Assembly (NCBI GenBank): GCA_021776095.1
Contig: JAJFGO010000055.1
Location: forward strand, 7,551 to 71,550
Reading direction: 5' to 3'
DNA length: 64,000 nucleotides
From: Kiloniellaceae bacterium
Lineage (GTDB): Bacteria; Pseudomonadota; Alphaproteobacteria; Kiloniellales; J153
The notes below the pieces were generated by a model, which saw only the letters and a list, made by a program, of their open reading frames with translations, did not search any database and was not told where the DNA came from. Positions 42,790-61,341 of this stretch are shown here, in pieces; positions within the stretch are counted from its first letter, which is position 1, and each line of letters begins with the position of its first letter. Position numbers and translations under genes: made by a program.

Positions 42790-44181
42790 TTACTGACCGG
42801 CCGGGCTGAGGCCCCCTAGCCAGGACTGGTGATTGACCGCTGCCTGCTCTGGGGCTCGGACGTTGAGGGTGTCCAGCAACAAGCCGCCGACTGCGAGAAT
42901 TCGGTAGGAGGCCAGAAGCTCATTGGTCTGCGCGGTTACCAGCAGGCCACTGGAAACGAATAGTTCGTTCTCCGAGTCGAGCACATCGAGCAGTGTACGC
43001 TGCGCGACCTCGAACTGTTGGCGATAGGCATCGCGCGTTTCCATGTTGAACTGCACCGCGTCGGACAGGTCTTCGACCCGCTGCCTATTCGCCTCGAAGG
43101 CAAACCAAGACTGGCGCATCTCGCGCTGCGCCTCAAGGTAGGAGCGCATGCGTCGGTTCTTGTTCTCGGCCACACGCGACAAGGCCTCCTGACGCGCCGC
43201 CCGATCAATGCCGCCACGGAACAGGTTCCACCGCAAACGCAGCATCACCTGATTGTTGAACTCATAGGTTTGGATGCCATCGCGGCCGTCGTTGTATTCG
43301 GATTCGGCCTCCAAGCTAACGGCGGGATAGAACGGCGCCTCGGCCAGGGTGACCTCCGCCTTCGAGGTGCGCACGTCGGCTTCGAAGATCTTGATGGTCG
43401 GATTGTTGGTGCCGGCCAAGGCGACCGCCGTTTCCAGATCCGGCGGCAGGACGCCTTGCGGGAACTCGACCGGCTCTAGACCGTCCGGGAACTGTCCAAC
43501 AATGCGCGTGAAGGTAGCTTCGCTGTCGCGCAGGTCATTCAAGCTCTGGGTCAAGGTCGAGCGGGCCCGCGCCGTGCGGGCCTCGGTCTGCACCACGTCG
43601 GCGCGGCTGCCGCCGCCGCCGGACTGGCGCTGGCGCACCGCGTCGAGAATCGTCAGATGAACGTCGAGATTGATTTCCGCCAATCGAACGAGTTCACGCT
43701 GGCGAACGACTTCCAGATAGGTGCCGACCGCGTCGAGGGCCAGGAACTCTGAATTCTCCTCAACCCGGCGGGCCGCCGATTCGACCCGTGATTTTTCTCG
43801 CTCGATCGTGCTGTTGGCTTCGAAGCCATCGAAAATCCGCTGCTGCAAAGTTACCGAGGCCTCTTGCCGGGTTAATGTCAGCGGATCCCGGTTGTTGACA
43901 TCGGCCCGGGTTGTCCGGTCGTTGGTCCGCTCCTTGCCGATCCCCGCGGCGGCATCGATCTGAGGCAGCCACAAGCCACGGGCCTGTCTCAGCTCTTCGT
44001 CGACCGCTTCACGGTTGCTGGCGACGATACCGATGTCGGGATTAGTCGACACCGCATGGTCGACCGCTTCCGTCAGCGACAGGGCCTGGGCCGCGTAGGC
44101 CCCAGGAAACGCAAATACCGTTGCAAGTAATACTGCCCTAAAGCAGCGCGTCGCCTGAACCTTGGCTAAGCGTGATCGCAT
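42790..44181 (-). CDS. TolC-family type I secretion outer-membrane protein
   Basis: 463 aa. Signal peptide, LSLTEAVDHAVSTNPDI start and duplicated OEP repeats. Confidence 0.9.
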   Translation of the reverse strand: MRSRLAKVQATRCFRAVLLATVFAFPGAYAAQALSLTEAVDHAVSTNPDIGIVASNREAVDEELRQARGLWLPQIDAAAGIGKERTNDRTTRADVNNRDPLTLTRQEASVTLQQRIFDGFEANSTIEREKSRVESAARRVEENSEFLALDAVGTYLEVVRQRELVRLAEINLDVHLTILDAVRQRQSGGGGSRADVVQTEARTARARSTLTQSLNDLRDSEATFTRIVGQFPDGLEPVEFPQGVLPPDLETAVALAGTNNPTIKIFEADVRTSKAEVTLAEAPFYPAVSLEAESEYNDGRDGIQTYEFNNQVMLRLRWNLFRGGIDRAARQEALSRVAENKNRRMRSYLEAQREMRQSWFAFEANRQRVEDLSDAVQFNMETRDAYRQQFEVAQRTLLDVLDSENELFVSSGLLVTAQTNELLASYRILAVGGLLLDTLNVRAPEQAAVNHQSWLGGLSPAGQ

Positions 44182-44642: not shown

Positions 44643-47405
44643 ATGACGGCCGGAAACAGCAAATCCGACATGATCGCAGCGCTTGCCCGCCGCGAAACGG
44701 AGCGCCGGGGCGAAGCGCCGTCTGGCGCCGCCCCGAGCGAACCAAACGCGCGCCCTGACCAGGATTCCGAGACCCAATCCGGCGCCGACGCCCCCGGCGC
44801 GGCGCGGCGCAGCCATCCGACGCACCGGCTGATCCAAGCCCTGGCCGCCGCATCGCGCCCGGCCGAGGCGCCCGAAGGGGCCGAGGAAACGACCGAGTCA
44901 ACGAACCAGACCCCAGCCAAAACGGCATCACAGGTTCCCACCCTTACCCCCGCCCAAGGTGCAGCCGGTACCGCCGGTGCGAAAGCGCCCGCCCCGCGGG
45001 ATCCTGCCCCCAAGGCCCCGGTGCCCCGCCCCAAGGACCCGAGCGCGGGTCCAGGGACCGAATCGGGAACCGCCAGCCGGCCGACCTCCACCGACCGCCC
45101 CCAGCCCGCCGCGCAGGCAAGTGCCGCCGCCCGGCCAGGGCCGACGGGCCCGGCGCCTGCCGCGGCCCGGAATGCGCCCCCCGCCCCGGCTGCCCCGGCC
45201 GCAAACGCTGGCGCAGGCGGCGCAATCGCCCCGGAAGACGTGCTCGAAGAAAAGGCAGACTGGCGCGTCGCGCCTTCGGCAATCGATTTCATAGACCCCT
45301 TGTTGTCGTCGCTGACCACGCTGGCGGCAATTTTGGAGCGGCCAATCTCAGCCGAAGCACTGAAGGCGGGGCTGCCTCACGGCGCCGAGCACTTCACGCC
45401 GGAGCTGGCGGTACGCGCGGCCGAGCGCGCGGGCCTGAGCGCGCGGGTGACGCGCCGGCCCCACCTATCCCAAATTCTGCCGGTCACCCTGCCTTGTATT
45501 CTGATCCTGAAGGGCCAGAACGCCTGCGTCCTGCTGAAATATCCGAAAGCCGGCATGGCGGAGGTGCTGATTCCCGAAGGGGGAACGGCTGAGAAGACGG
45601 TGCCGATCAAGGACCTGGAAGAGCAGTACACCGGCTACGCCATCTTTGTCAGGCCTGAGTACAAGTTCGATCAGCGCGCCTCGGACATTCGCCTGAGCCA
45701 GCCGCGGGCCTGGTTTTGGGGCACACTGGCCAAGTTCTGGCCGATTTACAGCCATGTCTTGATGGCCTCGATTCTGATCAACCTCTTCGCGATCGCCAGT
45801 CCGCTGTTCATCATGAACGTCTACGACCGTGTGGTGCCCAACAACGCCTTGGAGACCCTGTGGGTCCTCGCCTTGGGCGTGGTCACTGTCTTCGTGTTCG
45901 AATTCATCATGCGCAATCTGCGCACCTATTTCGTCGATGTCGCAGGCAAGAACGCCGACGTCATCATCGCCAGCCGGCTGCTGCAGCAACTCATGTCCAT
46001 GAAGCTGGCGAGCAAGGGCCCTTCGACCGGCGCCATGGCGAACAACCTGCGCGAGTTCGAATCCCTGCGCGAGTTCTTCACCTCCGGCACGCTGGTCGCC
46101 TTGGTGGACCTGCCATTTATTTTCCTTTTCGTGGCCGTGATCTACCTGGTCGCAGGCCCGGTCGCCTTCATACCCTTGGCGGCAGTCCCGATCGTCATTT
46201 TCGTCGGCGTGATCATGCAGTTTCCGCTGCGCAATGTGATCGAGAAGACACACCGCGAGCAGAGTCAGAAGCATGCGCTTCTGGTCGAAACCATTGACGG
46301 GCTGGAGACCATCAAGGCTGCCGCGGCCGAGGGCCGTGTGCAACGAAGCTGGGAACGTTTCGTCGGCCTGACCGCCGAGTCCTCCGGCAAGGCGCGCTTT
46401 CTTTCCGGTCTGGCGACCACCTTCGCGCAAGTCTCTATCCAGCTCTGCACCGTGGTGGTCGTCGTCTACGGCGTGCACCTGATTGCCGCCGGCGATATCA
46501 CCATGGGCGCCTTGGTGGCGGCGACCATACTGGCCGGCCGATCACTGGCTCCGCTCGGCTCGGTCGCGACCATGCTAACCCGCCTGCAGCAATCGCGGGT
46601 CGCACTGCGGTCTCTCGATGCGATCATGAAATCTCCGGTGGAGCGGCCTGAGGGCAAGACCTTCCTGCACCGGCCCCGTCTGAGCGGCGAGATCGACGTC
46701 AACGATGTCGGCTTCAGCTACCCCGCTCAGGAAGCCAAGGCCCTGGACGGCGTGTCGTTCCAGATCAAGCCGGGCGAGCGGGTTGGCGTCTTAGGCCGCA
46801 TCGGCTCCGGCAAGAGCACCATCGCCCGTTTGCTGATCGGCCTCTACGAGCCGGCCGAAGGTGCCATCCTGGCGGACGGAACCGACATCCGGCAGATCGA
46901 CCCCGCCGATCTGCGACGCAATGTCGGCTATGTCTCGCAAGATAACTATCTCTTCTTCGGCACGGTGCGCGACAATATCGCCTTTGGCGCCCCCCATCTG
47001 GACGACCAGACGATCATGCGCGCGGCGGAGGTCGCCGGAGTCACGGAGTTCGTTCGCACCCACCCGCTGGGCCTCGATCTGCAGGTCGGGGAACGGGGTA
47101 TGAGCCTGTCGGGCGGACAGCGCCAATCGATCGTGATCGCGCGCGCCTTGCTGCTCGACCCGCCGATCATCGTGCTCGACGAGCCGACCAGCAACATGGA
47201 CAACTCTTCCGAGGCCGCCTTCAAGCGGCGCATGGGCGCAATCCTGGAAGACAAGACCCTGGTGCTGATCACCCATCGAAGCTCGCTCCTGACCCTGGTC
47301 GACCGCCTGATCATCATCGATGGCGGCAAGGTGGTCGCGGACGGCCCGAAAGAGCAGGTGTTGGCCGCCCTGAAACAAGGCCAGATCCGGTCGAACCGGA
47401 ACTGA
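44643..47405 (+). CDS. Type I secretion ABC transporter (C39-like domain + TMD + NBD) with ~200-aa Pro/Ala-rich N-terminal extension
   Basis: C39-like IDFIDPLLSSLTTLAAILERPISAEAL (no Cys). Six TM segments. Walker A GRIGSGKST, LSGGQRQ, Walker B IIVLDEPTS. An alternative in-frame GTG at 45240 would remove the extension. Confidence 0.85.
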   Translation: MTAGNSKSDMIAALARRETERRGEAPSGAAPSEPNARPDQDSETQSGADAPGAARRSHPTHRLIQALAAASRPAEAPEGAEETTESTNQTPAKTASQVPTLTPAQGAAGTAGAKAPAPRDPAPKAPVPRPKDPSAGPGTESGTASRPTSTDRPQPAAQASAAARPGPTGPAPAAARNAPPAPAAPAANAGAGGAIAPEDVLEEKADWRVAPSAIDFIDPLLSSLTTLAAILERPISAEALKAGLPHGAEHFTPELAVRAAERAGLSARVTRRPHLSQILPVTLPCILILKGQNACVLLKYPKAGMAEVLIPEGGTAEKTVPIKDLEEQYTGYAIFVRPEYKFDQRASDIRLSQPRAWFWGTLAKFWPIYSHVLMASILINLFAIASPLFIMNVYDRVVPNNALETLWVLALGVVTVFVFEFIMRNLRTYFVDVAGKNADVIIASRLLQQLMSMKLASKGPSTGAMANNLREFESLREFFTSGTLVALVDLPFIFLFVAVIYLVAGPVAFIPLAAVPIVIFVGVIMQFPLRNVIEKTHREQSQKHALLVETIDGLETIKAAAAEGRVQRSWERFVGLTAESSGKARFLSGLATTFAQVSIQLCTVVVVVYGVHLIAAGDITMGALVAATILAGRSLAPLGSVATMLTRLQQSRVALRSLDAIMKSPVERPEGKTFLHRPRLSGEIDVNDVGFSYPAQEAKALDGVSFQIKPGERVGVLGRIGSGKSTIARLLIGLYEPAEGAILADGTDIRQIDPADLRRNVGYVSQDNYLFFGTVRDNIAFGAPHLDDQTIMRAAEVAGVTEFVRTHPLGLDLQVGERGMSLSGGQRQSIVIARALLLDPPIIVLDEPTSNMDNSSEAAFKRRMGAILEDKTLVLITHRSSLLTLVDRLIIIDGGKVVADGPKEQVLAALKQGQIRSNRN

Positions 47406-47418: not shown

Positions 47419-48738
47419 ATGGTCAGCAACCAGGAAGACCTGCACTTCATGCCCGACGTTCACGCGGCGGCGCGGCGCCGTGGGCACCGCTTCGCCAGTA
47501 TTCTGACGTTCCTGACCTTCCTCTTCATAGGGATCATGGGCGTTTGGGCCCACTACGCGGTCCTGGACGAAGTGACGCGTGGGGAAGGCCGGGTCATTCC
47601 CTCAAGCAAAATCCAAGTCATCCAGAACCTGGAAGGCGGCATCCTGGCCGAAACCCTGGTCCGCGAAGGCGACATCGTTCAGGCGGGCGATATCCTGGTA
47701 CGGATCGACAACACCGCGGCGCAGGCGAGCTTCCGCGACCTGCAGGCCCAACACTACACCCTGCTCGCCACGATCGAACGCCTGGACGCCCAGCAGTCCG
47801 GCCGCGACATGAAGATCGACCAGGACTTGCGCGACAAGGCACCCGCCGCCGTGGCCGACCAGGAATCCTTATTCGATTTTCTCCGGCGCCAATTGACGGC
47901 GCAGATCTCGGTGCTCGAGTCCCAAGCCTTGCAGCGCACACAAGAAATCGCGGAGATGAATAGTAGGACCAAGCAGCTGCGGCGCAGCCTGGCGCTGACG
48001 CGTGAAGAGCGCGCGATCACCGAACCCTTGGTGCGTAACGGCGTCATGCCGCGCGTGGAATTGATTCGAATCGACCGCCAGGTGTCCGACCTGGAGGGCG
48101 AGATCGGAACCATCCGCCTATCGATCCCACGGTTGCAATCCGCGGTCAAAGAGGCCGAGCAGCGGATCGAGGAAGTCCGCCTGAGCGCCAAGAGCGAGAT
48201 CACCAACGAATTGAACCGGGCCCGCGCGGAGCTGCAATCGATTCGCCAAACCATGTTTGCCGGCGCGGATCGGGTCACCCGGACCGAAGTCCGCTCGCCG
48301 GTGCACGGCACCATCAAAGAACTCATGCACACCACGGTCGGCGGCGTGATCCGGCCGGGCGAGGATATTCTGGAAATCGTGCCCTTGGACGACCGGCTTT
48401 TGATCGAGGCCCAGATCCGGCCGACCGATATCGCCTTTCTGCGGCCCCTGCAGAACGCGGTCATCAAGGTCGCGGCCTATGATTTCTCGATCTACGGCGG
48501 GCTCAAGGCCACGGTGGAGCAGATCAGCGCCGATACCATCAAGGACGAACAGGGCGACAGCTTCTACCGGGTCTACCTGCGGACCGATCAGAACACCATT
48601 GTCCACCAGGGCAACGAACTGCCGATCATCCCGGGCATGACCACGACGGTGGAGATCCTGACCGGCAAGAAGTCGGTCCTGGACTATCTCCTCAAGCCGA
48701 TCCTCAAGGCCCGCGATCGCGCCCTAAGGGAACGCTAA
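47419..48738 (+). CDS. HlyD-family type I secretion membrane-fusion protein
   Basis: 439 aa. N-terminal TM segment, long coiled-coil, C-terminal GMTTTVEILTGKKSVLDYLLKP. Confidence 0.9.
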   Translation: MVSNQEDLHFMPDVHAAARRRGHRFASILTFLTFLFIGIMGVWAHYAVLDEVTRGEGRVIPSSKIQVIQNLEGGILAETLVREGDIVQAGDILVRIDNTAAQASFRDLQAQHYTLLATIERLDAQQSGRDMKIDQDLRDKAPAAVADQESLFDFLRRQLTAQISVLESQALQRTQEIAEMNSRTKQLRRSLALTREERAITEPLVRNGVMPRVELIRIDRQVSDLEGEIGTIRLSIPRLQSAVKEAEQRIEEVRLSAKSEITNELNRARAELQSIRQTMFAGADRVTRTEVRSPVHGTIKELMHTTVGGVIRPGEDILEIVPLDDRLLIEAQIRPTDIAFLRPLQNAVIKVAAYDFSIYGGLKATVEQISADTIKDEQGDSFYRVYLRTDQNTIVHQGNELPIIPGMTTTVEILTGKKSVLDYLLKPILKARDRALRER

Positions 48739-48986: not shown

Positions 48987-49796
48987 GTGAGCGAATTTCT
49001 GGTGTTGTTTTGGCGCAGCGCATCTGTCGTCTGCACCGCCTTCTTACTGACTTTGGCGGTCGCAGGTGGGCGGGCGGCTCAAGCGCAAACCCTGGGCGAT
49101 CTCGCCCGCGCCAGCCAGAGCGCAACCGGCGCCACGATAAGACCCCAGGCCCTGAACGGCTCCAGTCCAATAACCGGCAACGGCCTATTTGGCACCGCCG
49201 AGTTCGTGTCCGACTCACTCAAGGGTCTGCCGCAGTGGACTCGCGTTCTGGCGGAGATGGGCCGTGAGCGCCCCAAGTTCGACGCCTGCGCACGCGACGT
49301 CTCGCGCTGTACCTCCCCGACCTTGCGTAACTGGCACCATATCATCAACTCGGCGGCCAAGCTCAACCGCGCCGGCAAGATCCGCGCGGTCAATGAGTTC
49401 TTCAATCGCTGGCCCTACAAGGAAGACCGTGAGATTTACGGACGCAGCGAGTATTGGGCGGCGCCGAGCGAGTTCATGGCCCGCTCCGGCGACTGCGAAG
49501 ATTACTCCATCGCGAAGTACTTCGCGCTGCGCCAACTCGGCTTCGGCGAAGACGAATTGCGGGTGGTGATACTGATGGATGAGATTCGCGGTATCGGGCA
49601 CGCCGTTTTGGCGATATACGAAGAGGACAAGATTATTGTTCTCGACAGTTTATCCAATTTGATCCTGCCCCATGATCGCTATAAGCATTACCGGCCGCAG
49701 TACTCGATGAACGAATCGAGGCGCTGGGCCCATGTCGGCGGTTTCCGGAACCAGCCGACGGCACCCTATCGAGGGCTGGCCGCCCGTCAAAATTGA
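48987..49796 (+). CDS. Periplasmic transglutaminase-like cysteine protease (BTLCP, LapG-type)
   Basis: Signal peptide. YWAAPSEFMARSGDCEDYSIAKYFALRQLGF (Cys), GHAVLAIY (His), VLDSL (Asp). Confidence 0.85.
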   Translation: MSEFLVLFWRSASVVCTAFLLTLAVAGGRAAQAQTLGDLARASQSATGATIRPQALNGSSPITGNGLFGTAEFVSDSLKGLPQWTRVLAEMGRERPKFDACARDVSRCTSPTLRNWHHIINSAAKLNRAGKIRAVNEFFNRWPYKEDREIYGRSEYWAAPSEFMARSGDCEDYSIAKYFALRQLGFGEDELRVVILMDEIRGIGHAVLAIYEEDKIIVLDSLSNLILPHDRYKHYRPQYSMNESRRWAHVGGFRNQPTAPYRGLAARQN

Positions 49797-49810
49797 GTCG
49801 GAGAGCGAAG

Positions 49811-51931
49811 ATGGACTCGGCGGCGGGCGTTGAGAGCCCTGGAGCCATTAATTTGTTATCGTCGGACCTGCCGGCCACCGAGGCGAAGCCGGGCGGCCCG
49901 CGGGCGCTCATGGCCCGCGCCATCTGGGTCCTGGCGATCATTGCCACCCTGGCCGTGATCGTGCCCGCGATTCAGATTTACAATGAGCGTGCCAGCTTGC
50001 TGACCGATCTGGAGCGGCGCCTGGGAATCTTGGCCAGGGGCCGGGCCGAGGTCATCGATACTTGGCTGGAGGGCTTGGCGCACCCGGTCGACAAGGTGGT
50101 CAACAGCGAGATGTTCCGCCTGTTCGCCACCGAGGTCGATCTGTCGCTGACCGACATGGCCGATCTGGCGGCTGGCAACCGGCGCCCCAAGGCAGAATCG
50201 TCCGGCAGCGATATCAGCGTGCCCCTGAGCGCGCAGATCCCCTTCATGTCGCAGGTCATGACCGATTTCGCGAAAAGCGAGGGCTTTGCCTCCGGTCACT
50301 TGATCAACCGCCGCGGCGTGGCCTACGTCGGTAGTGCCGGGGCGCCTGAACTCGGCCCGGCCCAGGCCGAACTGGCCGCGCAGGTCGTCAAGAGTGGCGT
50401 GTTGCGCTACGGTCCGCTGCGCGACACGGCCGGCGGCTTGATCCTCGATATTTTCGCCCCTGTACGCAGCGCGCAAAGCGGCAGCGACCGCGCCAGCCCG
50501 GTCGGCGTGGCGCTTTTGAGCGTGCCGGTCAGCCCGCGCCTGCAACAATTCCTGGCGCCGCCCCCGCTCACCGAGCCAGGCGAGCGGCTAAGGCTGCTTC
50601 AGTTCACCGACGGCAAAGCCTACGAGATCGCGCCGGGCGAGACGCCCGCGCTGCGTCCGGTCAGCGGCCTGGCCGCGGAACGGACCGGGCCGGTCATCGG
50701 CTTTGCCCGGCGCGCCGGGCTCGCCGGCGGATCGGTCTATTCAGTCGGCGCACCCTTGAGCGGCCCCGGCTGGTGGGCTGTCCAGGAGATCAAAGCCGAG
50801 GCCATGAGCCAGCGCCTGGGCGGATTCATTGCGACCGTGGTCACCCTGGCGGTTTTGGTGATCCTGGCGATCGGCGCCGTCTTCGGGGCCTTTTGGTGGC
50901 GCCTGGCCAACGAGCACAGTTCGGCCCTGGCCCAGCAATACCGCCGCCTGGCGGCACGCATCGAGACTCAGAAACACCTTCTCGACAGCATCAACAACAC
51001 AATTACAGACCACATCGGATTGAAAGGCCCGGACGGCGCCTATCGCTACCTGAACCCGGCCTTCGCCCGCACCATCGGCAAGGATGTCGATCAAGCGATC
51101 GGCCTGGACGACGCCGCCATCTATGGCCAGGGCACGGCCGCGCGCCTAAAGCATTCGGACCAGCGCGCCCTAGCCTCTGGCGCGGCAGTGACGGTCAACG
51201 AGGAGGTCTACCTGGGCGGCAAACCGCGCCACCTACAGATCACCAAGATTCCCCACCGCGACGATTCGGGGGTCTTCTCGGGCATCGTGGCGGTGACCCG
51301 CGACGTGACCGAACTGGTCGAGGAACAGAAAAAGCGCGAGCAAGCTGTCCGCCAGACGGTTTCCGCCCTGGTTCGCGCGGTCGAGCTGCGCGATCCCTAC
51401 CTGGCCGGGCATTCCCAACGGGTGGCCGGATTCGCGGCCGCGGTCGCCCAACGCCTGGGCGCGTGTCCCGAAGACATCGCGACCGTGGAAATTGCGGCCG
51501 ATTTATCGCAAATCGGCAAGCTGGGCGTACCGCGCGAAATCTTGAACAAGCCGGGCCGCCTAACCCCGGACGAGATCGTGCAGATGCAAAGCCATCTCGA
51601 TCACGCCGCCGCCGTCCTGCGCGGCATCGAATTCGGGCTTCCCGTCTTGGAAACTGTCATGGCCATGCACGAGCGCCTGGACGGCCAGGGCTATCCGGCC
51701 GGGTTATCGGGCGAGCACATCTCCCTGGCGGCTAGGATCCTTGGCGCCTGCGACGTTTTCTGCGCCCGGCTGGAGCCCAGGTCGTACCGCCGGGGCATAA
51801 CCGCCGCGGCAGCCTTGGATATCCTGGAAAGCAACGCGGAGCGCTATGACCCACGGGTCATCACTGCCCTGCGCGAGGTGGCGCAATCGGTCGCGGGCGA
51901 AAAACTCCTGGCCGACCTAGGCTCCGCCTGA
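49811..51931 (+). CDS. Transmembrane sensor: TM - ~290-aa periplasmic domain - TM - PAS - degenerate HD-GYP
   Basis: ATG 49811 after GGAGAG (the track start 49793 is a TTG overlapping the upstream stop). HSQRVAG..., ADLSQIGKLGVP (canonical LHDIGK), MHERLDGQGYPAGL (canonical HHExxDGxGYP). Confidence 0.8.
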   Translation: MDSAAGVESPGAINLLSSDLPATEAKPGGPRALMARAIWVLAIIATLAVIVPAIQIYNERASLLTDLERRLGILARGRAEVIDTWLEGLAHPVDKVVNSEMFRLFATEVDLSLTDMADLAAGNRRPKAESSGSDISVPLSAQIPFMSQVMTDFAKSEGFASGHLINRRGVAYVGSAGAPELGPAQAELAAQVVKSGVLRYGPLRDTAGGLILDIFAPVRSAQSGSDRASPVGVALLSVPVSPRLQQFLAPPPLTEPGERLRLLQFTDGKAYEIAPGETPALRPVSGLAAERTGPVIGFARRAGLAGGSVYSVGAPLSGPGWWAVQEIKAEAMSQRLGGFIATVVTLAVLVILAIGAVFGAFWWRLANEHSSALAQQYRRLAARIETQKHLLDSINNTITDHIGLKGPDGAYRYLNPAFARTIGKDVDQAIGLDDAAIYGQGTAARLKHSDQRALASGAAVTVNEEVYLGGKPRHLQITKIPHRDDSGVFSGIVAVTRDVTELVEEQKKREQAVRQTVSALVRAVELRDPYLAGHSQRVAGFAAAVAQRLGACPEDIATVEIAADLSQIGKLGVPREILNKPGRLTPDEIVQMQSHLDHAAAVLRGIEFGLPVLETVMAMHERLDGQGYPAGLSGEHISLAARILGACDVFCARLEPRSYRRGITAAAALDILESNAERYDPRVITALREVAQSVAGEKLLADLGSA

Positions 51932-51981: not shown

Positions 51982-53070
51982 ATGCCAAACTGTCCTTCCC
52001 CTCATCGATCTCCGCGCCGCGGCGGTTCCGCCGTGCAGTATCTTGGGCCCTTTGTCCTTTGCCTTGGCCTCGTACTCGATTTGGTGCCGCTCGCTCCGAC
52101 CGAGGGCGCCCTGGCGGCCAGCCGGAATTTGGCCGAGGAAACCGGGCGAATCGAAGTCAACGCCATGGAGTATCCCTGGAGCGCGATCGGCCGGGTGAAT
52201 GCCGGGGGCCGGGGCCACTGCACCGGGTTCCTAGTCGGCGAGCGCGCCGTTCTGACCGCCGCGCACTGCCTCTACGATATGCGTGAGCAGCGCTGGCGCG
52301 GCGCCACGGAACTGCACTTCGTGGCCGGCTATCAGCGCGATACCTATACCCTCCATTCGCCGGTCGCCAGCTATGCCCGGGGTGCCGGTTTCAAGCCCGG
52401 CCCGGCAAGCGGCACGGCGAGCGCGTTGCACGATTGGGCGGTCCTGACCTTGGCACGGCCGATCGGGCGGCACGCCGGCTGGATCGGCCTGGGCCAGGCA
52501 AGTAAAGACCTGATCTCGAAAGTCGGGCGCGGCCAGGCCCGGATCCTGCAGGCCGGATACCGGCAGGGCTGGACCCATATCATGTCGGTCAGTTTCAACT
52601 GCAAGATCCTGGGACAATTTGGCAAGGGTCGGGGACTAGCCCATGCCTGCGACGTGGCCAAGGGCGATTCCGGCTCGCCCCTCCTGGCGCTGGCCGGCGG
52701 CAAGTTGCGGGTGATCGGCCTGCATGTCCTGGATATGCAGACCAAGCAGGGCCACGTGGCGGGCGCCCTCTCGGCCGCACTGTTCCGGCCCGGCACCGGG
52801 CGTGAGGAAGCAGTCAGCGCCTTGCGCCGCGCCGGCAGCGACTGGGGCGGCGGTCGGCCGCCCAAAAGCGGCAGCCCAGCGGCGTCAGCGCCGGTCAAGA
52901 CCATCGAGGACCTGCTGAGTGAGCTCGGCCTCTTGGACCCGCGCCGGGGAGGCCCCGATACGACGCGCCGCCGGGCCGCGATTGAGGCCTTCCAGGCAGA
53001 TGCCGGCCTACCGGTAACCGGGGAGCCCTCCCTGACCCTTCTGGGCCACCTGATCTCGGCAAGGGAATGA
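51982..53070 (+). CDS. Secreted S1-family (Glu-specific-like) serine protease with C-terminal peptidoglycan-binding domain
   Basis: Intact triad context: LTAAHCL, DWAVLTL, KGDSGSPLL. The C-terminal RRRAAIEAFQADAGLPVTGEPS is PG_binding_1-like. Confidence 0.8.
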   Translation: MPNCPSPHRSPRRGGSAVQYLGPFVLCLGLVLDLVPLAPTEGALAASRNLAEETGRIEVNAMEYPWSAIGRVNAGGRGHCTGFLVGERAVLTAAHCLYDMREQRWRGATELHFVAGYQRDTYTLHSPVASYARGAGFKPGPASGTASALHDWAVLTLARPIGRHAGWIGLGQASKDLISKVGRGQARILQAGYRQGWTHIMSVSFNCKILGQFGKGRGLAHACDVAKGDSGSPLLALAGGKLRVIGLHVLDMQTKQGHVAGALSAALFRPGTGREEAVSALRRAGSDWGGGRPPKSGSPAASAPVKTIEDLLSELGLLDPRRGGPDTTRRRAAIEAFQADAGLPVTGEPSLTLLGHLISARE

Positions 53071-53479: not shown

Positions 53480-55405
53480 CTAACCGAACGGCGCGCTGAG
53501 GTCGATGGCGCCATCCTCCAACAACTGATCCGCGTCAAGGCCACTCGCCCGGCTCAGGATCGCGGCGGCGGCAAAGTTCTCACCGCTTCCGGTCGCATCG
53601 ACTTCAATCACCGTGTTTCGGCCATCGACGTTGAGACGCAAATAATCGTCCAGGTTATCGGCGTCCACCGCCGGCACGGCCCCGCCATTCCCGGAAAGGA
53701 TGTCGTAAAGGTTCAAGACGTCGCCCCTCGAGGCATTGAAATCGAAGATAAGGTCCGGCGCGCCGCCTAAATCCAGCACAAAGACATCGGCACCGCGTCC
53801 ACCGACCATGCGGTCGGCGCCGTCACCGCCGAAGAGAATGTCGTCTCCCGTGCCACCGTTGAGATAGTCGTTTCCCTCGCCTCCCAGCAAGAGGTCGTCG
53901 CCGGTACCGCCGATCAACCGGTCGTTGCCGGTCCCGCCATCCAGGGCATCGGCGCCGGAGCCGCCATTGAGATAGTCGCCGTGTTCGCCACCGCGCAGCA
54001 AATCGTCGCCGCTATCGCCAATAAGACTATCGCAGCCGGCACCGCCTTCCAAAGTATCGTCGCCGGAACCGCCGCGTAGTCGGTCATTCCCCTCGCCGCC
54101 TCGCAACACATCGGCGCCGCTATCGCCACGCAGGTTGTCGTCGCCGGTGCCACCATCCAAGTTGTCCGCGCCGGGGCCGCCTCGCAGGGAATCCCGCCCG
54201 GCCCCGCCCAACAGGGTGTCGTCGCCTTGGTCGCCGCGCAAATCGTCGTTGCCGTCGCCGCCCATAAGGGTGTCGTTGCCGCTATCGCCGCGGAGACTAT
54301 CGTTCCCCAAACCACCTTTCAGGACATCGTCACCAGCGCCACCACGAAGGCTATCGTCGCCACAACCCCCATCCAGCGTATCGGCCCCGTCGTCGCCGCG
54401 CAGCTTGTCATTGCCGGAGCCACCTAACAGGACGTCATCGCCAGCGCCGCCACGCAGATCATCCCGTCCGCCCCGGCCCACAAGCAAATCTGCCCCAACT
54501 CCGCCGCGCAGCGTGTCGTTTCCCCGATCGCCAATCAGCGTTACGCCGGGAGCTTCACTCGGTCCTTCAGGATCGCAGGGATCTTCAGGTTCGGGTTCAG
54601 GTTCGGGCTCTGGTTCCGGCTCGGGATCCGGCTCTGGCTCTGGTTCCGGGTCCGGCTCGGGGTCCGGCTCGGGTTCGGGTTCCGGCTCGGGCTCGGGCTC
54701 GGGCTCGGGCTCCGGCTCCGGCTCTGGTTCCGGTTCGGGCTCGGGTTCCGGCTCGGGCTCGGGCTCTGGTTCCGGCTCTGGCTCTGGATCGGGCTCAAGG
54801 CTGGCGGCCGGAACAGATTGCGGGTCCGCCCTCCCGCCGGGCCCCAACTCAAGGTTGCCGGCCGGACCGGCTTCACCGGGTTGAAAGGAAGAGTTTCGAT
54901 CAAAGTCCTGGATTCCGGTCTCGACCAGTCCCAAAGGTTCAGTATCTATCGGATCGATCGAACCCGAACGGTTCAACCCCACGCCGATCAATTCGCCGGT
55001 GTCGTCCTCGTAGGCGCCAGCCCCGGATGTCAAGGGCTGCGCATCGCCGGCGGCCGTCTCCGGCACCGCGTCGGCCTCCAGGCTCGTTATGGCCGCGATA
55101 AGTAGGGGAGCGGTCATGACCGAACCATCGCTCATCACAATGCTCGGCGGCTGGCTGGATTCGGCCGCTGCGACAAAACGGTCGAGACGAACCACACCGC
55201 CATTGCTGAACTGTAGATTTAACGACTCGCCGTCCAGGTGCGCCTGAATTTCAGCCGCCGGAAAGCCAAATGCCAAGGTATCGCCCGGTTCCACCGGGAT
55301 ACGCAGGGTCGCCCCTTCGTCCGGCGGGACGACCGCGATCTGTTGACCAGACGGCGTCTCAATAACGGCCCTGGAACCTTGCGCATCTAGGATCGTGTCT
55401 GCCAA
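53480..55405 (-). CDS. RTX calcium-binding type I secretion substrate with N-terminal TAAG-containing module and (PE)n stalk
   Basis: More than 20 GGxGxDxL nonapeptide repeats. The C-terminal [20 protein letters not shown]...[16 protein letters not shown] resembles the VCA0849-type T1SS signal domain. Likely TTG start at 55405, 6 nt after GGAGGAGG. Confidence 0.9.
54587..54797. repeat. Imperfect hexanucleotide tandem repeat (GGYTCN)n encoding about 35 Pro-Glu/Pro-Asp dipeptides
   Basis: ggttcgggttcaggttcgggctctggttccggctcgg... Read on the minus strand it gives PEPEPE...PDPE. Confidence 0.9.
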
Positions 55406-55675
55406 GAAACCTCCTCCAACTCCAGAGCAGTTGAGCAAACATCAAGCATACAATCAGATAGTACATCAGAATCGATAAATATTCGACTATTTAATTAAGT
55501 TAAAATATGATTATTATTTAGACATATTCTAAATAATTTTATTATTATTTTTCATTATATTGTCGTAGACTCTCAATTATACTTTGTGTATGAACCCTAG
55601 ACGGCTGTCACGGCTAGTTCGGAGCCGAATGTGGCAAGAGAACGGCGCCATCCCTCGGGGTCTAGTGGTCCGATC

Positions 55676-55702
55676 CTAACGCTTGGTTCCCAAGCGTTAG
55701 GT
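55676..55702. repeat. Perfect 12-bp-stem palindrome
   Basis: cctaacgcttgg-ttc-ccaagcgttagg. Confidence 0.7.
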
Positions 55703-55731
55703 GAATCGGCCCACCAAGCCGTTGATCTTGT

Positions 55732-55775
55732 GGGGCGACTTATCCAAACGGATGGGAACCATCCGTTTGGGTCGC
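55732..55775. repeat. Second, inverted copy of the hairpin core of the 7939-8100 element
   Basis: ggggcgacttatccaaacggatgggaaccatccgtttgggtcgc is the reverse complement of 7974-8017 with one mismatch. Confidence 0.75.
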
Positions 55776-56041
55776 GCCACTAGCGCACGATCGGACCCAA
55801 TTCGATGGGCTCATACGCTCTAACTTATTGATTAGGCTTATTTTCTTATACCGAACGACTTCACACCTTGTCCAAAACCGTCCCAGAAAGCTTGAATTAG
55901 AATTCGCGGCCGATTAGAAAAATCACCTCTTTCGTGACACTGTATTCCGTATTTGACATTGAAAATCCACAGAAGTTCTGCCAAGATACGGGTGCGGATG
56001 GGGTTCTTTTGATTAATCAATGAAGCCAGGACGGCTAGAAA

Positions 56042-56412: not shown

Positions 56413-56676
56413 GTGACCGGTCGCGAATTGGCTTGGCGCCAGTGGCAGGGCGAGTTGGTTGTCTTCAACCCGATATCAGGCGCGACTCATCTTTTAGATA
56501 TCGCCAGCGCCGAGATTTTTCATGCCTTAATGGCCGGGTCGACACGGCGCGGCGATTTGGCGGGTCGCCTGGCTGATCTGCTCGAAGTCGATTGCGACGA
56601 CGGGGTGCGGGCCGCGACCGACCGTATATTGGCGCGCCTGGACGACCTCGGCCTGGCGGAGCCGGCCGCCGCATGA
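56413..56676 (+). CDS. PqqD-family peptide-binding protein (HPr-rel-A system type)
   Basis: 87 aa. GELVVFNPISGATHLLDIASAEIFHAL is the PqqD/RRE pattern. GTG start. Confidence 0.8.
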   Translation: MTGRELAWRQWQGELVVFNPISGATHLLDIASAEIFHALMAGSTRRGDLAGRLADLLEVDCDDGVRAATDRILARLDDLGLAEPAAA

Positions 56677-57602
56677 TTCTGAGAGATCTATCCGTCGACG
56701 AGATCTTCCGGCACTTAAGCAGTACCGGCCTGGTGCTAGACACCGGCGCATTTCATGTTCACCTGCGCACCGATCTGAAAAGCCTGGCCCAAATGCTGGC
56801 ACGCAGTTATGGCGGCCACAAGGTCGAAGCCGAACCGGCGATCCATCACATGCAGGTGCGGATCGAACGGGGCAAATGGCGCGGCCCATGGCGCGACCGG
56901 GGTGTGCAAGCCTTCGTGAACGACCGGCAGATCTTGGGTCCCTTCCCAACTTACCTGGCCTATCCCATGCTGGAATCGATCCTTAACTGGTCGATCGCCA
57001 AGTTGATTCTGCGCTATGTCATTTTTCATGCCGGCGCGATCGAGCGCGACGGCCGAGCGCTCATCCTCACCGGGCCTTCGGGCTCGGGCAAAAGTACGCT
57101 CTGCGCCGCACTTTCCCAGACCGGGTGGCGCCTGTTATCCGACGAAATGGTGTTGCTAAACCCCACCGGGCCGGCAATCGCCGGCAACCCCCGGCCAATT
57201 TCGCTCAAGAACGATGCCATAACCCGGATCCGCGCCGTGGCCCCCGCAGCGACCTTTACCGACTCGTACGAAGGCACCGTTCGGGGCACGATCTCTTTCG
57301 TCTGTCCGACCCCCGATTCGGTCGTGCGGGCCGCAGAATCTGCACCGCCAAGCCGGGTCGTCTTTCCGCGCTTCCAGAGCGGGGCCGAGACCGAAATTAA
57401 GAAACTGGAAAAGGCCCAAGGCTTCATCCGCCTGATCGAGAATTCGGTCAATTACGTGGCAACCTTGCGCACCGGTTTCGAGGCGGTGGCGAACTTGACC
57501 GAGCAATGTCGGTTTTACGAAATCACTTTCGGCGATCTCGGTGCGGCGATGACGGCCATCGAAACCGTCGCCGCGCCGGAACCCGGCGACGGGGCGGCCT
57601 AG
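56673..57602 (+). CDS. HprK-related kinase A
   Basis: Start MILRDL in an ATGA overlap with the PqqD stop. HAGAIERDGRALILTGPSGSGKST...LLSDE resembles the HPr kinase C-terminal domain. Confidence 0.8.
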   Translation: MILRDLSVDEIFRHLSSTGLVLDTGAFHVHLRTDLKSLAQMLARSYGGHKVEAEPAIHHMQVRIERGKWRGPWRDRGVQAFVNDRQILGPFPTYLAYPMLESILNWSIAKLILRYVIFHAGAIERDGRALILTGPSGSGKSTLCAALSQTGWRLLSDEMVLLNPTGPAIAGNPRPISLKNDAITRIRAVAPAATFTDSYEGTVRGTISFVCPTPDSVVRAAESAPPSRVVFPRFQSGAETEIKKLEKAQGFIRLIENSVNYVATLRTGFEAVANLTEQCRFYEITFGDLGAAMTAIETVAAPEPGDGAA

Positions 57603-57604
57603 AG

Positions 57605-60014: not shown

Positions 60015-60470
60015 TATAAGAACTAAGAAAATTAAGTATAGTAAATAAAACGTGTTGAGACATTAAGCTTAACAACTAACTACTTTTCCATTTATTTTTC
60101 CGCATATCTATGTTATATAGTTTGTCGAATTTAAAGGCTCTTAGGGCAATGTTACCTGTAGGGGAGCCTTCACGGTTGAAGGCGATGAGGGAACAATGGG
60201 AGGGCGCACGCCATCGGGCGTGGTGGGAGTACAAGAAAATCCCAAGGCCGAATACTTGGAGTGCACTTGGCGCCAATTCATGTTTGGTTAGTCGAGTCCT
60301 TTCGAAACGGACATGGGGGTCCCCAAGTTAAGTCCATTATCAGTCAACGGTCTTGCGTTTAGCCTCATTTGAAGTGCATGGTTCATTTGTTATCTTTGTT
60401 TTGTGTGGCCGATTCCCTCTTTGGAGCACGTCGGCTTAGGAATGTTAAGCGATCATCCGGAGACCACCCG

Positions 60471-61103: not shown

Positions 61104-61341
61104 CGGAAACGTAGTAAGAGGAGCGAGTTCGCACAGGGGAAAACGGGAGCATGATCGCGAGGCAAGGTTCTCGCGCGTGATCGCGCCTCGATTGGGATAG
61201 CCCGATGCTGGCCTCATAGCCTGATTGTCAGGCCCCGGATAGAATACGGCACCGTATCTCTGGCAACGAAACGCAAGACGACTTGAATTTGGTGAAGACG
61301 TCCTTCGTTGATTTGAGCTTGAACATAGTCAGGTAGGCTAT

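What the first reader, a model, noticed from the sequence alone, without database searches (positions are those of the whole stretch)
53480..55405. Minimal LapA-like substrate: N-terminal module with a TAAG di-alanine site, a (PE)n stalk, RTX repeats and a T1SS C-terminal signal
LapG-type proteases cleave their giant adhesin substrates at a (T/P/A)AA(G/V) site about 100 residues from the N-terminus, which releases the retention plug. This 641-aa RTX protein has PETAAGD with TAAG encoded at 55046-55057. That is residues 117-120 from the probable TTG start, after a beta-rich ~110-aa N-terminal segment. It therefore looks like the cognate LapG substrate of the adjacent T1SS.

Unlike known LapA/BapA-type adhesins of thousands of residues, it has no large adhesive repeat region. 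It has only an acidic linker, about 70 residues of Pro-Glu/Pro-Asp, RTX nonapeptides, and a VCA0849-like secretion domain. It may be a very small surface-tethered, c-di-GMP-releasable RTX protein of unknown function.
Basis: partly seen in the sequence, partly recalled or inferred. Interest (0 to 1): 0.6.

Follow-up and report, generated by a model that had tools for sequence, protein, structure and literature searches.

The report
Miniature releasable RTX surface protein
This is a 641-residue secreted calcium-binding protein with the same N-terminal plug and protease cut site that giant biofilm adhesins use to stay on the cell surface, but its only cargo is an acidic Pro-Glu rod, so it looks like a natural miniature of a known, signal-controlled tether-and-release system.

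Summary
ORF 53480-55405 (-) encodes a 641-aa protein with five parts:
- a confidently folded beta domain (res 21-98) followed by a helix (99-112)
- a single TAAG at res 117-120
- a disordered linker
- a 79-residue (PE)n stalk
- an RTX beta-roll with a TIGR03661 type I secretion (T1SS) C-terminal domain.

- The N-terminal module has 156 relatives. The di-alanine is at least 90% conserved in the same column.
- Larger relatives carry cadherin/Big_9 adhesin repeats. Half of the aligned relatives weakly match Pfam BapA_N.
- The neighbouring genes are a LssB/LapB-type T1SS, a LapG-like protease (BTLCP) with an intact D-C-E/H/D site, and a true DvhD orthologue. That orthologue matches all three DvhD crystal structures and has HD replaced by SQ.
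- The system is therefore Dvh-type. The HD-GYP protein is a c-di-GMP receptor, not a phosphodiesterase.
- Orthologous mini-substrates lie near dvhD in four other loci.

Two corrections apply. Small members are common: 17 of 41 complete-looking relatives are under 700 aa, and the published census considered only proteins over 1000 aa. The acidic stalk varies greatly between orthologues and may itself be the functional cargo.

Cleavage and tethering are inferred, not shown.

The parts
53480..55405 (-). Gene for the 641-aa mini RTX substrate (TTG start at 55405, stop codon 53480-53482)
   Evidence: ORF list and translation. P0001, the 79%-identical homologue, starts at the same residue.
55410..55417 (-). 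Shine-Dalgarno-like GGAGGAGG, 4 nt upstream of the TTG start
   Evidence: Read from the sequence.
55526..55576 (-). AT-rich upstream region with two sigma-70-like promoter matches on the gene's strand
   Evidence: Consensus scan found 5 sites against 1.5 expected. GC is 0.45 here. No Rfam family or riboswitch was found. This is a consensus match only.
55112..55345 (-). Retention-domain candidate: eight-stranded beta domain, residues 21-98
   Evidence: AlphaFold2 pLDDT is about 95 with the 32-sequence alignment and about 90 in the full-length model. There are 156 HMMER relatives, nearly all with the module at the N-terminus. Pfam BapA_N matches 16 of 32 aligned relatives.
55070..55111 (-). Helix at residues 99-112 ([14 protein letters not shown]), candidate 'targeting helix' just before the cut site
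   Evidence: DSSP on both models gives H99-112 and H99-111. The position matches the targeting helix described in PMC13090378.
55046..55057 (-). TAAG, residues 117-120; predicted scissile bond Ala118-Ala119
   Evidence: Translation. It is the only such motif in the protein, with P about 0.01-0.03 for that position by chance. A118 and A119 are at least 90% conserved in the family.
54950..55030 (-). Conserved post-site motif, residues 126-152 ([27 protein letters not shown]; family consensus SGGxGxYxDDxGxLxxGxxRLG)
   Evidence: G128, Y132, G137 and G143 are at least 90% conserved. The model shows no fold here (pLDDT below 50). Its role is inferred: the segment that occupies the TolC-like channel.
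54800..55045 (-). Disordered linker, residues 121-202
   Evidence: pLDDT 28-40 in the full-length model. Composition is G/D/A/P-rich.
54563..54799 (-). Acidic (Pro-Glu)n stalk, residues 203-281, ending in EDPCDPEG
   Evidence: Composition is P 47%, E 42%, D 8%. It is a 6-bp tandem repeat of 34 copies and gives a weak Trypan_PARP hit. Length and repeat unit differ in every orthologue.
53771..54541 (-). RTX beta-roll, residues 289-545, with about 26 nonapeptide motifs
   Evidence: Pfam HemolysinCabind E = 1.6e-67. pLDDT is about 90 with regular short strands. Foldseek hits CyaA RTX blocks, lipases, serralysins and MpIBP RIV.
53483..53755 (-). C-terminal type I secretion target domain, residues 551-641, ending ...DLSAPFG
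   Evidence: TIGR03661 scores 38.5 bits against a cut-off of 17.6. The C-terminus is conserved in P0001, P0004 and the L003 and L004 orthologues.
42790..44181 (-). TolC-family outer-membrane channel (LapE/TolC role)
   Evidence: TIGR01844 scores 288 bits against a cut-off of 225.
44643..47405 (+). LssB/LapB-type T1SS ABC permease/ATPase with a C39-like domain and a low-complexity N-terminal extension
   Evidence: TIGR03375 type_I_sec_LssB scores 985 bits against a cut-off of 693. Peptidase_C39 is only sub-threshold.
47419..48738 (+). HlyD-family T1SS periplasmic adaptor
   Evidence: TIGR01843 scores 406 bits against a cut-off of 209.
48987..49796 (+). Periplasmic BTLCP cysteine protease (DvhG/LapG-like) with a signal peptide, a GDCEDY Ca/Cys motif, and His and Asp
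   Evidence: Pfam Peptidase_C93 E = 1.8e-16. The NCBIfam LapG equivalog scores only 97.6 bits against a cut-off of 320. It matches the LapG structures 4u65 and 4fgo at about 1e-20 with GDCEDY aligned. Sequence.
49793..51931 (+). DvhD orthologue: TM, periplasmic domain, TM, PAS, and a degenerate HD(SQ)-GYP c-di-GMP receptor domain
   Evidence: It matches PDB 9rc0 (1.7e-75), 9rbz (2.6e-51) and 9rc2 (7e-32, query residues 72-337). 'LSQIGK' replaces the HD motif exactly as reported for DvhD.
51982..53070 (+). Trypsin-like S1 serine protease with a C-terminal peptidoglycan-binding domain, convergent with the substrate gene. A possible accessory; its membership in the system is uncertain.
   Evidence: Pfam Trypsin 1.1e-15 and PG_binding_1 1.3e-6. 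The same gene pairing occurs in L003 and L004. It is listed as a recurrent neighbour in the supplement of PMC13090378.

Best explanation
The gene encodes a natural miniature of a LapA/DvhA-type, two-step type I secretion substrate.

Proposed sequence of events:
1. The protein is exported C-terminus first by the adjacent LssB-type ABC transporter, HlyD adaptor and TolC-like channel.
2. The RTX beta-roll folds outside the cell with Ca2+.
3. The disordered linker (residues about 121-202) stays threaded through the outer-membrane channel.
4. The folded N-terminal beta domain (residues 21-98) is too large to pass. It plugs the channel from the periplasmic side, so the protein stays tethered.
5. The tether displays a rod of about 79 Pro-Glu residues plus the beta-roll at the cell surface.
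6. When cytoplasmic c-di-GMP is high, the DvhD orthologue (catalytically dead HD-GYP, used as a receptor) restrains the periplasmic BTLCP protease.
7. When c-di-GMP falls, the protease docks on helix 99-112 and the retention domain and cuts between Ala118 and Ala119. The plug is lost and the roughly 520-residue acidic passenger leaves the cell.

Shown here: the domain anatomy, homology of the N-module to adhesin N-termini, conservation of the di-alanine, the identity of the neighbours, and conserved linkage in other genomes.

Inferred: tethering, cleavage, c-di-GMP dependence, and what the passenger does. My best guess for the passenger is a polyanionic, Ca2+/cation- or mineral- or exopolysaccharide-binding surface layer of tunable length, rather than a classical repeat adhesin.
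For: Anatomy. AlphaFold2 gives two folded parts: residues 21-111 and residues 289-635. Residues 112-282 are mostly below pLDDT 50 and show no secondary structure. The order beta domain, helix, [T/A/P]AAG, unstructured segment is the one described for LapA, MapA, CraA, FrhA, DvhA and DVU1545 (PMC13090378).

Family.
- HMMER against 1.84 billion representatives finds 156 relatives of residues 1-204.
- A118 and A119 are at least 90% conserved, with consensus ETAAG.
- Larger relatives carry Big_9, Cadherin_4/5, VWA and DUF5801 repeats plus RTX.
- Pfam BapA_N matches 16 of 32 aligned relatives (best 2.5e-6). NCBIfam BapA-prefix matches 11 of 32.

Context.
- The LssB-type ABC transporter scores 985 bits, and HlyD and TolC score above their cut-offs.
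- The BTLCP has a signal peptide and an intact GDCEDY...H...D, and matches LapG crystal structures.
- The DvhD orthologue matches all three DvhD structures and has SQ in place of HD.

Linkage. Orthologous mini-substrates (retention module, xAAG, acidic stalk, RTX...LDLSAPFG) lie about 3.6-7 kb from dvhD in Kiloniellaceae MAGs L004 and L003. In metagenome contigs L006/L007 the mini-substrate lies about 0.3 kb from dvhD-dvhG. Only one ORF in the 64-kb window carries the module.

Feasibility. An engineered LapA of about 510 aa (N272 fused to C235, about 10% of LapA) is surface-displayed and needs LapG for release (10.1101/358705).
Against: - No experiment supports it, and no protease-substrate co-model could be run.
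- The window protein itself does not reach any curated retention-module or BapA_N threshold (Pfam E = 0.27, 11.4 bits against a gathering score of 27).
- Foldseek against the PDB finds no significant match for the N-domain. Fold identity with a solved retention domain is therefore not shown.
- The 'DP' turn motif of the optimal gammaproteobacterial LapG site is absent (the sequence is ...[11 protein letters not shown]).
- A second periplasmic protease gene (trypsin-like) is tightly linked to the substrate gene and could be the real or an additional processing enzyme.
- The passenger's function is a guess.
Confidence: 0.72

Rival explanations
1. It is an ordinary one-step secreted RTX calcium-binding exoprotein. 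The N-terminal domain has another role, such as a folding or interaction domain, and the TAAG is not a functional cut site. The protein is released into the medium regardless of the protease.
For: RTX plus a TIGR03661 signal alone suffice for one-step secretion. The N-domain does not reach the BapA_N threshold and has no significant PDB fold match. A [TAP]AA[GV] somewhere in a protein of this composition is expected in about 19% of shuffles.
Against: The site is at the conserved column in at least 90% of aligned relatives, directly after a helix that follows the domain. The same module heads adhesins with cadherin/Big_9 repeats. The transporter is LssB/LapB-type, and a BTLCP and DvhD are encoded alongside in five loci.
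Confidence: 0.1
2. The tightly linked trypsin-like, peptidoglycan-binding serine protease is the enzyme that processes or releases this protein, or that clears the leftover plug. It would act instead of, or together with, the BTLCP.
For: The S1 protease gene is convergent with and directly beside the substrate gene in the window, L003 and L004. In L003 and L004 other genes separate the pair from dvhD. 'Trypsin-like serine peptidase' recurs in alphaproteobacterial DvhDG neighbourhoods in the supplement of PMC13090378. The His (TAAHC) and Ser (GDSGSP) motifs look intact, and a hydrophobic N-terminus suggests export.
Against: The gene is absent from L006/L007, where the substrate sits directly beside dvhD-dvhG. 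The conserved site is a di-alanine typical of BTLCP proteases, not a trypsin-type basic site. No experiment links S1 proteases to Lap or Dvh systems in the papers read.
Confidence: 0.12
3. It is a decayed remnant of a once-large adhesin that lost its repeat region. It would be non-functional, or merely occupy the secretion channel.
For: The module family includes proteins up to 3528 aa. The stalk is a slippage-prone 6-bp repeat.
Against: The ORF is intact with a good ribosome-binding site. The same compact architecture is kept in at least five independent loci at 42-79% N-terminal identity, and the C-terminus is conserved. In addition, 17 of 41 complete-looking relatives are under 700 aa.
Confidence: 0.04

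Closest known systems
DvhA (DVU1012) and DVU1545 with DvhG/DvhD of Desulfovibrio (Nitratidesulfovibrio) vulgaris Hildenborough (PMC10990149, PMC13090378)
   Same: It has the same regulatory pair. The BTLCP protease carries the D-C-E Ca/Cys site. The receptor is a dCache-PAS-HD(SQ)-GYP protein that matches all three DvhD crystal structures. The T1SS is LssB-type. The substrate has an N-terminal beta retention domain with the helix close to it, then [T/A/P]AAG, a disordered segment, and a C-terminal RTX/T1SS signal.
   Different: DvhA and DVU1545 are large, with more than a dozen beta-rich repeat domains, a vWF-A domain and a serralysin-like domain. This protein has 641 aa and no folded passenger other than the RTX roll. 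The host is an alphaproteobacterium (Kiloniellaceae-like). The protease has a signal peptide rather than a TM anchor. A trypsin-like protease gene is linked.
LapA/MapA with LapG/LapD of Pseudomonas fluorescens, and other LapA-like adhesins (BrtA, RtxA, FrhA, CraA, MpIBP)
   Same: It shares the two-step T1SS logic: an N-terminal retention module, a di-alanine site about 100 residues in, an RTX C-terminus, a LapB/LssB-type transporter and a BTLCP protease.
   Different: The receptor is DvhD-type, not LapD (LapD_MoxY_N-HAMP-GGDEF-EAL). The protease is below the LapG equivalog cut-off (97.6 against 320 bits). There is no 'DP' motif. The size is about one eighth of LapA, and there are no adhesive repeats. 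The census criterion of >1000 aa is not met.
Engineered mini-LapA 'N272' (LapA residues 1-272 fused to the last 235 residues; 10.1101/358705)
   Same: It is a retention module plus linker plus C-terminal secretion region, about 510 aa in total. It is surface-displayed and released only by LapG. The window protein has the same minimal composition.
   Different: N272 is man-made. The window protein is natural, and it carries a long (PE)n stalk and a much longer RTX roll.
Pfam PF22783 BapA_N / NCBIfam NF033677 BapA prefix-like domain
   Same: It is an N-terminal domain of T1SS biofilm adhesins. Half of the aligned relatives of the window's N-module hit it.
   Different: The window protein itself scores only 11.4 bits (E = 0.27), and most relatives are below the gathering score. 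This is a divergent, mostly unannotated branch.
(Glu-Pro)n rods: trypanosome procyclin/PARP EP repeats and the TonB Glu-Pro/Lys-Pro spacer (comparison from general knowledge, not tested)
   Same: It has a long alternating Pro-Glu sequence expected to be extended and polyanionic. There is a weak Pfam Trypan_PARP hit (E = 2.7e-7, below the cut-off).
   Different: The resemblance is compositional only, with no homology implied. Here the rod sits between a T1SS plug and an RTX roll.

Membership tests
LapA-like / Dvh-type two-step T1SS substrate (BTLCP-released RTX surface protein) | Folded beta-rich retention domain at the extreme N-terminus | tested here: met
   AlphaFold2 gives eight strands in residues 22-98 with pLDDT about 90-95 in two independent runs. 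The module is N-terminal in nearly all 150 listed relatives.
LapA-like / Dvh-type two-step T1SS substrate (BTLCP-released RTX surface protein) | Helix ('targeting helix') between the retention domain and the cut site | tested here: met
   Helix 99-112 ends 4 residues before T117. This short spacing is the one reported for DvhA and DVU1545.
LapA-like / Dvh-type two-step T1SS substrate (BTLCP-released RTX surface protein) | [T/A/P]AA[G/V] di-alanine site about 100 residues from the N-terminus | tested here: met
   TAAG at residues 117-120. It is the only such site, the Ala-Ala column is at least 90% conserved, and P is about 0.01-0.03 by position in shuffles.
LapA-like / Dvh-type two-step T1SS substrate (BTLCP-released RTX surface protein) | Conserved 'DP' turn motif before the site (optimal P. 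fluorescens LapG substrate) | tested here: not met
   The sequence is [11 protein letters not shown], and the family consensus has no DP. The motif was defined for gammaproteobacterial substrates.
LapA-like / Dvh-type two-step T1SS substrate (BTLCP-released RTX surface protein) | C-terminal RTX repeats and a T1SS secretion signal | tested here: met
   HemolysinCabind E = 1.6e-67. TIGR03661 is above its cut-off.
LapA-like / Dvh-type two-step T1SS substrate (BTLCP-released RTX surface protein) | Encoded with a LapB/LssB-type ABC transporter, an adaptor and a TolC-like channel | tested here: met
   TIGR03375, TIGR01843 and TIGR01844 are all above their cut-offs, 6-12 kb from the gene.
LapA-like / Dvh-type two-step T1SS substrate (BTLCP-released RTX surface protein) | Large size (>1000 aa in the published census; 'giant', >200 kDa) with adhesive repeat domains | tested here: not met
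   The protein has 641 aa (about 65 kDa). There is no folded domain between residues 112 and 288. The census filter is quoted.
LapA-like / Dvh-type two-step T1SS substrate (BTLCP-released RTX surface protein) | Cleavage by the cognate BTLCP, surface retention, and c-di-GMP-dependent release | not testable with these tools
   This needs biochemistry or genetics.
DvhD (c-di-GMP receptor of the Dvh system) - neighbour 49793-51931 | Periplasmic dCache, PAS and HD-GYP domains, with the HD motif replaced by SQ | tested here: met
   PDB 9rc2 matches query residues 72-337 (7e-32), and 9rc0 and 9rbz match residues 390-709 (1.7e-75, 2.6e-51). 'LSQIGK' corresponds to DvhD 'LSQVGK'. Pfam itself finds no dCache.
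LapG/DvhG BTLCP protease - neighbour 48987-49796 | Periplasmic location, a C-H-D triad and an adjacent D-x-E calcium site | tested here: met
   Signal-peptide-like N-terminus; GDCEDY, GHAVL and LDS motifs. It aligns to the LapG structures 4u65 and 4fgo at 5e-20 and 3e-19. It is not a LapG equivalog by NCBIfam (97.6 against 320 bits).
Pfam PF22783 BapA_N | Score at or above the gathering threshold (27 bits) | tested here: not met
   The window protein scores 11.4 bits, E = 0.27. Of 32 relatives, 16 hit at E < 1, best 2.5e-6.
Classical one-step RTX exoproteins (toxins, serralysins, lipases) | A catalytic or pore-forming domain N-terminal to the RTX block | tested here: not met
   No Pfam or NCBIfam domain other than RTX/T1SS was found. 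The NCBIfam RTX_toxin, serralysin and lipase hits cover only the repeats and are far below their cut-offs.

The most novel reading that the evidence does not exclude
Kiloniellaceae-type marine alphaproteobacteria may use the Dvh tether-and-release machinery for something other than a classical adhesin. The cargo would be a length-tunable polyanionic brush: (PE)n in this window, and (DPDPEG)n or (EEDPEP)n followed by poly-Asp/Glu runs in relatives. It is capped by a Ca2+ beta-roll. It would act as a c-di-GMP-switchable cation-, mineral- or exopolysaccharide-binding coat. The conserved trypsin-like, peptidoglycan-bound protease would be a third, so far undescribed component of the system, for example clearing spent plugs.
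Probability: 0.25. Interest if true: 0.65.

Novelty: new variant of a known kind. Interest (0 to 1): 0.5.

Why it matters
Work on LapG and DvhG substrates has focused on giant adhesins, and the published genome census considered only proteins over 1000 aa. This locus, its four orthologous loci and the 17 small complete-looking relatives show that nature repeatedly builds substrates of about 400-700 aa. These contain little beyond the plug, the cut site, a channel-spanning linker and the secretion module.

Such a protein is a ready-made minimal model for studying retention in the TolC-like channel, recognition by the protease and c-di-GMP-controlled release. It avoids the handling problems of 300-900 kDa proteins, and it is a natural scaffold for surface display.

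It also extends the recently described Dvh architecture to a concrete substrate in Alphaproteobacteria. It raises two open questions:
- what a surface-tethered, hypervariable polyacidic rod does
- why a trypsin-like, peptidoglycan-binding protease gene travels with it.

Tried and rejected
- A word-indexed homologue search with residues 1-204 found nothing. With the family profile it found one fragment. The exhaustive HMMER search was needed.
- The plasmid collection has no DNA match.
- An exact-sequence look-up of the window's BTLCP and of its 100%-identical cluster representative gave no contig. The source organism is therefore only inferred as Kiloniellaceae-like, from 71-75% DvhD identity to MAGs.
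- A scan of GTDB representative genomes with the N-terminal 204 aa found no relative. The family alignment was too divergent to seed a scan.
- A profile search of PDB sequences with the N-module alignment gave only chance-level hits.
- Foldseek of the N-domain model against the PDB gave nothing at E <= 1e-3. The best matches, at E about 1e-2 and TM 0.36-0.42, were to the cap of CyaA RTX block V and the TcdA/B delivery domain. I do not read these as homology.
- A protease-linker-substrate pseudo-complex alignment was built. The first attempt misaligned. The second was correct, but the structure tool refuses chimeric sequences.
- There is no Rfam family, and so no c-di-GMP riboswitch, upstream of the gene.
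- Pfam finds no dCache in the DvhD-like periplasmic domain. The match to PDB 9rc2 settled that point.
- I considered and rejected a 652-aa form starting at TTG 55438. It has no ribosome-binding site, and the homologue starts at the 641-aa position.
Full report
**1. What is in the sequence**

The ORF on the minus strand from 55405 to 53480 is real. Of the two possible TTG starts, the one at 55405 is preceded by GGAGGAGG at 55417-55410. It also coincides with the annotated start of the closest homologue, P0001. The product therefore has 641 aa, about 64.6 kDa, pI 4.05, with 143 Asp+Glu against 32 Lys+Arg.

It is the only [TAP]AA[GV] in the protein.

A run of 79 residues (203-281) is 47% Pro, 42% Glu and 8% Asp. 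In the DNA it is a 6-bp repeat of 34 copies.

The RTX repeats are unambiguous: Pfam E = 1.6e-67, with 26 GGxGxD-like motifs. The C-terminus passes the curated threshold of TIGR03661, the VCA0849-type type I secretion target domain.

**2. Anatomy from structure prediction**

I ran AlphaFold2 twice. The first run used residues 1-165 with a 32-sequence family alignment. The second used the full length with 14 small relatives. The two runs agree.

| Residues | Prediction |
|---|---|
| 22-98 | Eight beta strands and one short helix, pLDDT about 90-95 |
| 99-112 | Helix |
| 112-282 | Mostly pLDDT below 50 (several blocks near 50), no secondary structure (linker and PE stalk) |
| 289-545 | Regular beta-roll, pLDDT about 90 |
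| 551-635 | Small C-terminal domain, pLDDT about 70-80 |

The protein thus has only two folded parts, one at each end. The full-length model matches solved RTX rolls such as CyaA blocks IV-V, lipases, serralysins and the MpIBP ice-binding roll.

The N-domain alone has no significant match in the PDB. The larger structure libraries were not available.

**3. Is the N-terminal module a retention module?**

The published description of LapG and DvhG substrates is a beta-strand retention domain, a 'targeting' helix, the [T/A/P]AAG site and then an unstructured segment. In the Desulfovibrio substrates the helix lies close to both the domain and the site (PMC13090378). The window protein has exactly this order and this tight spacing.

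Homology supports the same reading.
- An exhaustive HMMER search of 1.84 billion representative proteins with residues 1-204 found 156 relatives at E <= 1e-3.
- In nearly all of them the match is at the N-terminus.
- In the alignment the two alanines are at least 90% conserved, and the consensus reads ETAAG.
- 117 of 150 relatives carry the strict motif in their first 400 residues.
- By composition alone, a site in the 100-135 interval is expected in 1-3% of shuffles.
- Larger relatives are typical RTX adhesins with Big_9, Cadherin_4/5, VWA, CshA-repeat and DUF5801 domains.
- Pfam BapA_N (PF22783) matches 16 of 32 aligned relatives, and the NCBIfam BapA-prefix model matches 11 of 32.

The window protein itself scores only 11.4 bits on BapA_N. 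It therefore belongs to a divergent, largely unannotated branch and cannot be filed as a BapA_N member by the curated threshold.

A segment after the site is even better conserved than the domain. Its consensus is SGGxGxYxDDxGxLxxGxxRLG. I infer that it is the part that sits in the channel. Published models show no protease contacts beyond the scissile bond.

**4. The neighbours**

Upstream on the plus strand lie five genes.

| Coordinates | Gene | Key evidence |
|---|---|---|
| 42790-44181 (minus strand) | TolC-family channel | TIGR01844, 288 bits against a cut-off of 225 |
| 44643-47405 | LssB/LapB-type ABC transporter | 985 bits against a cut-off of 693 |
| 47419-48738 | HlyD adaptor | TIGR01843, 406 bits against a cut-off of 209 |
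| 48987-49796 | BTLCP protease | see below |
| 49793-51931 | 712-aa membrane protein with PAS and HD-GYP domains | see below |

The protease has a signal-peptide-like N-terminus and the GDCEDY, His and Asp motifs. It aligns to the LapG crystal structures 4u65 and 4fgo at about 1e-20. It is far below the LapG equivalog cut-off.

The 712-aa protein matches all three crystal structures deposited for DvhD:
- 9rc2, over query residues 72-337, at 7e-32
- 9rc0, the PAS/HD-GYP fragment, at 1.7e-75
- 9rbz, the HD-GYP domain, at 2.6e-51.

It carries LSQIGK where active enzymes have HD. This is the same SQ substitution that makes DvhD a c-di-GMP receptor without phosphodiesterase activity.

The system is therefore Dvh-type. 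The supplement of PMC13090378 already lists DvhDG neighbourhoods in marine Alphaproteobacteria such as Kiloniella, Pelagibius, Sneathiella and Fodinicurvata.

The nearest genomic relatives of the window's DvhD are Kiloniellaceae MAGs, at 71-75% identity.

**5. Is the small protein really the cognate substrate?**

Only one ORF in the 64-kb window carries the module. Orthologues occur in four other loci.

| Locus | Position | Features | Distance from dvhD |
|---|---|---|---|
| MAG L004 | 14620-17094 | ATAAG, a (DPDPEG)n stalk of about 40 units, a long (over 100 aa) Asp/Glu run, RTX...LDLSAPFG | about 3.6 kb |
| MAG L003 | 19065-20843 | ETAAG, (EEDPEP)n, poly-Asp, a short RTX block, the same C-terminus | about 7 kb |
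| Metagenome contigs L006/L007 | P0004 (574 aa, QPAAG) | convergent with dvhD-dvhG | about 0.3 kb from dvhD |

P0001 (536 aa, 79% identical in the N-terminus) has the same plan with a short stalk.

The compact architecture and its linkage to the regulatory pair are therefore conserved. The stalk changes in length and repeat unit in every orthologue.

**6. Feasibility and mechanism**

Smith and colleagues fused LapA residues 1-272 to its last 235 residues. This protein of about 510 aa was displayed on the surface and released only when LapG was present (10.1101/358705). A natural 641-aa protein with the same elements should behave likewise.

I therefore propose the following.
- Export is C-terminus first.
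- The beta-roll folds outside the cell.
- The 82-residue linker is threaded through the TolC-like channel.
- The N-domain acts as a periplasmic plug.
- The BTLCP cuts at Ala118-Ala119 once DvhD stops restraining it at low c-di-GMP.

All of these steps are inferred from homology and context. None was tested.

**7.

- The HD-GYP protein is a receptor, not an enzyme, so the system is Dvh-type, not LapD/LapG.
- Small members are common. Among 41 complete-looking relatives (RTX near the C-terminus), 27 are under 1000 aa and 17 are under 700 aa. The smallest has 399 aa. They are uncharacterised, and the published census required more than 1000 aa.
- The acidic stalk may be the cargo rather than a mere spacer. 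This follows from its extreme variability and from the Asp/Glu runs, over 100 residues in L004, in relatives. Cation, mineral or exopolysaccharide binding are plausible functions but are speculative. The gene lies next to polysaccharide export genes here and next to glycosyltransferases in L006.

**8. Rivals**

- A freely secreted RTX protein is unlikely, given the conservation of the site and the context.
- A role for the linked trypsin-like, peptidoglycan-binding protease cannot be excluded. The gene sits directly beside the substrate gene in three loci, and it recurs in alphaproteobacterial DvhDG neighbourhoods. It is absent from L006/L007.
- A decayed adhesin remnant is unlikely, because the compact form is conserved.

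**9. Verdict**

This is a new variant of a known kind: a natural minimal substrate of a Dvh-type tether-and-release system. Interest is moderate. It is useful as a minimal model and scaffold, and it raises open questions about the polyacidic passenger and the linked serine protease.

Noticed in passing
window 51982-53070 (+); L003 17503-18696; L004 13174-14283: A trypsin-like S1 protease gene sits convergent with, and directly beside, the mini-substrate gene in three genomes. In the window it carries a C-terminal peptidoglycan-binding domain (PG_binding_1 was not detected in the L003 copy and not checked in L004). The window and L004 copies are 65% identical. In L003 and L004 unrelated genes separate the pair from dvhD. 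'Trypsin-like serine peptidase' is also a recurrent neighbour in the DvhDG gene-neighbourhood list of PMC13090378 for Sneathiella, Pelagibius, Denitrobaculum and Kiloniella. It is absent from L006/L007. Its role is unknown.
   Followed up: partly
window 54950-55030 (-), residues 126-152: The segment just after the cut site (consensus SGGxGxYxDDxGxLxxGxxRLG) is better conserved across the family than the retention domain itself, yet it is predicted to be unstructured. It may be the part held inside the outer-membrane channel. I did not find it described in the papers read.
   Followed up: partly
window 44643-45290 (+): The LssB-type ABC transporter ORF begins with about 215 residues of Ala/Pro/Gly-rich low-complexity sequence before the family profile starts at residue 218. 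GC is 0.69-0.73 and AT skew +0.4. Relatives have ORFs of 835-875 aa, so an extension of variable length seems to be kept. A mis-called start was not excluded.
   Followed up: no
L004 14620-17094 (-); L003 19065-20843 (-): The orthologues of the mini-substrate contain long acidic runs. L004 has about 40 DPDPEG units followed by more than 100 residues of almost pure Asp/Glu. L003 has (EEDPEP)n followed by poly-Asp interrupted by RDR. These are among the most acidic stretches one is likely to meet in a bacterial secreted protein.
   Followed up: partly
L003 13261-13824 (+): A 187-aa ORF nearly identical to the C-terminal HD-GYP part of the dvhD gene lies 1.1 kb downstream of that gene. This is either a partial duplication or a MAG assembly artefact.
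   Followed up: no
window 56592-63000: On the far side of the substrate gene lies a polysaccharide-type cluster. It contains HprK-related kinase A (TIGR04352, 264 bits), an NTP_transf_5 nucleotidyltransferase, a VanZ-like protein, a Poly_export/SLBB (Wza-like) exporter and a 548-aa ORF with no Pfam hit. In L006/L007 glycosyltransferases, an asparagine synthase and a UDP-glucose dehydrogenase flank the substrate gene instead.
   Followed up: partly
window 55480-55620 and 60000-60499: Two sharply AT-rich intergenic islands (GC about 0.44 against about 0.63 for the window) lie upstream of the substrate gene and of the Poly_export gene. The first holds promoter-like hexamers on both strands. Two GC-rich hairpins lie just beyond it, at about 55690-55790.
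   Followed up: no
window 55112-55345 (-), model m9411f5b977df: The best, non-significant structural matches of the N-domain model are to the C-terminal capping fold of CyaA RTX block V and to the TcdA/TcdB delivery domain (Foldseek E about 1e-2, TM 0.36-0.42). This could be chance or a distant beta-sandwich resemblance.
   Followed up: no
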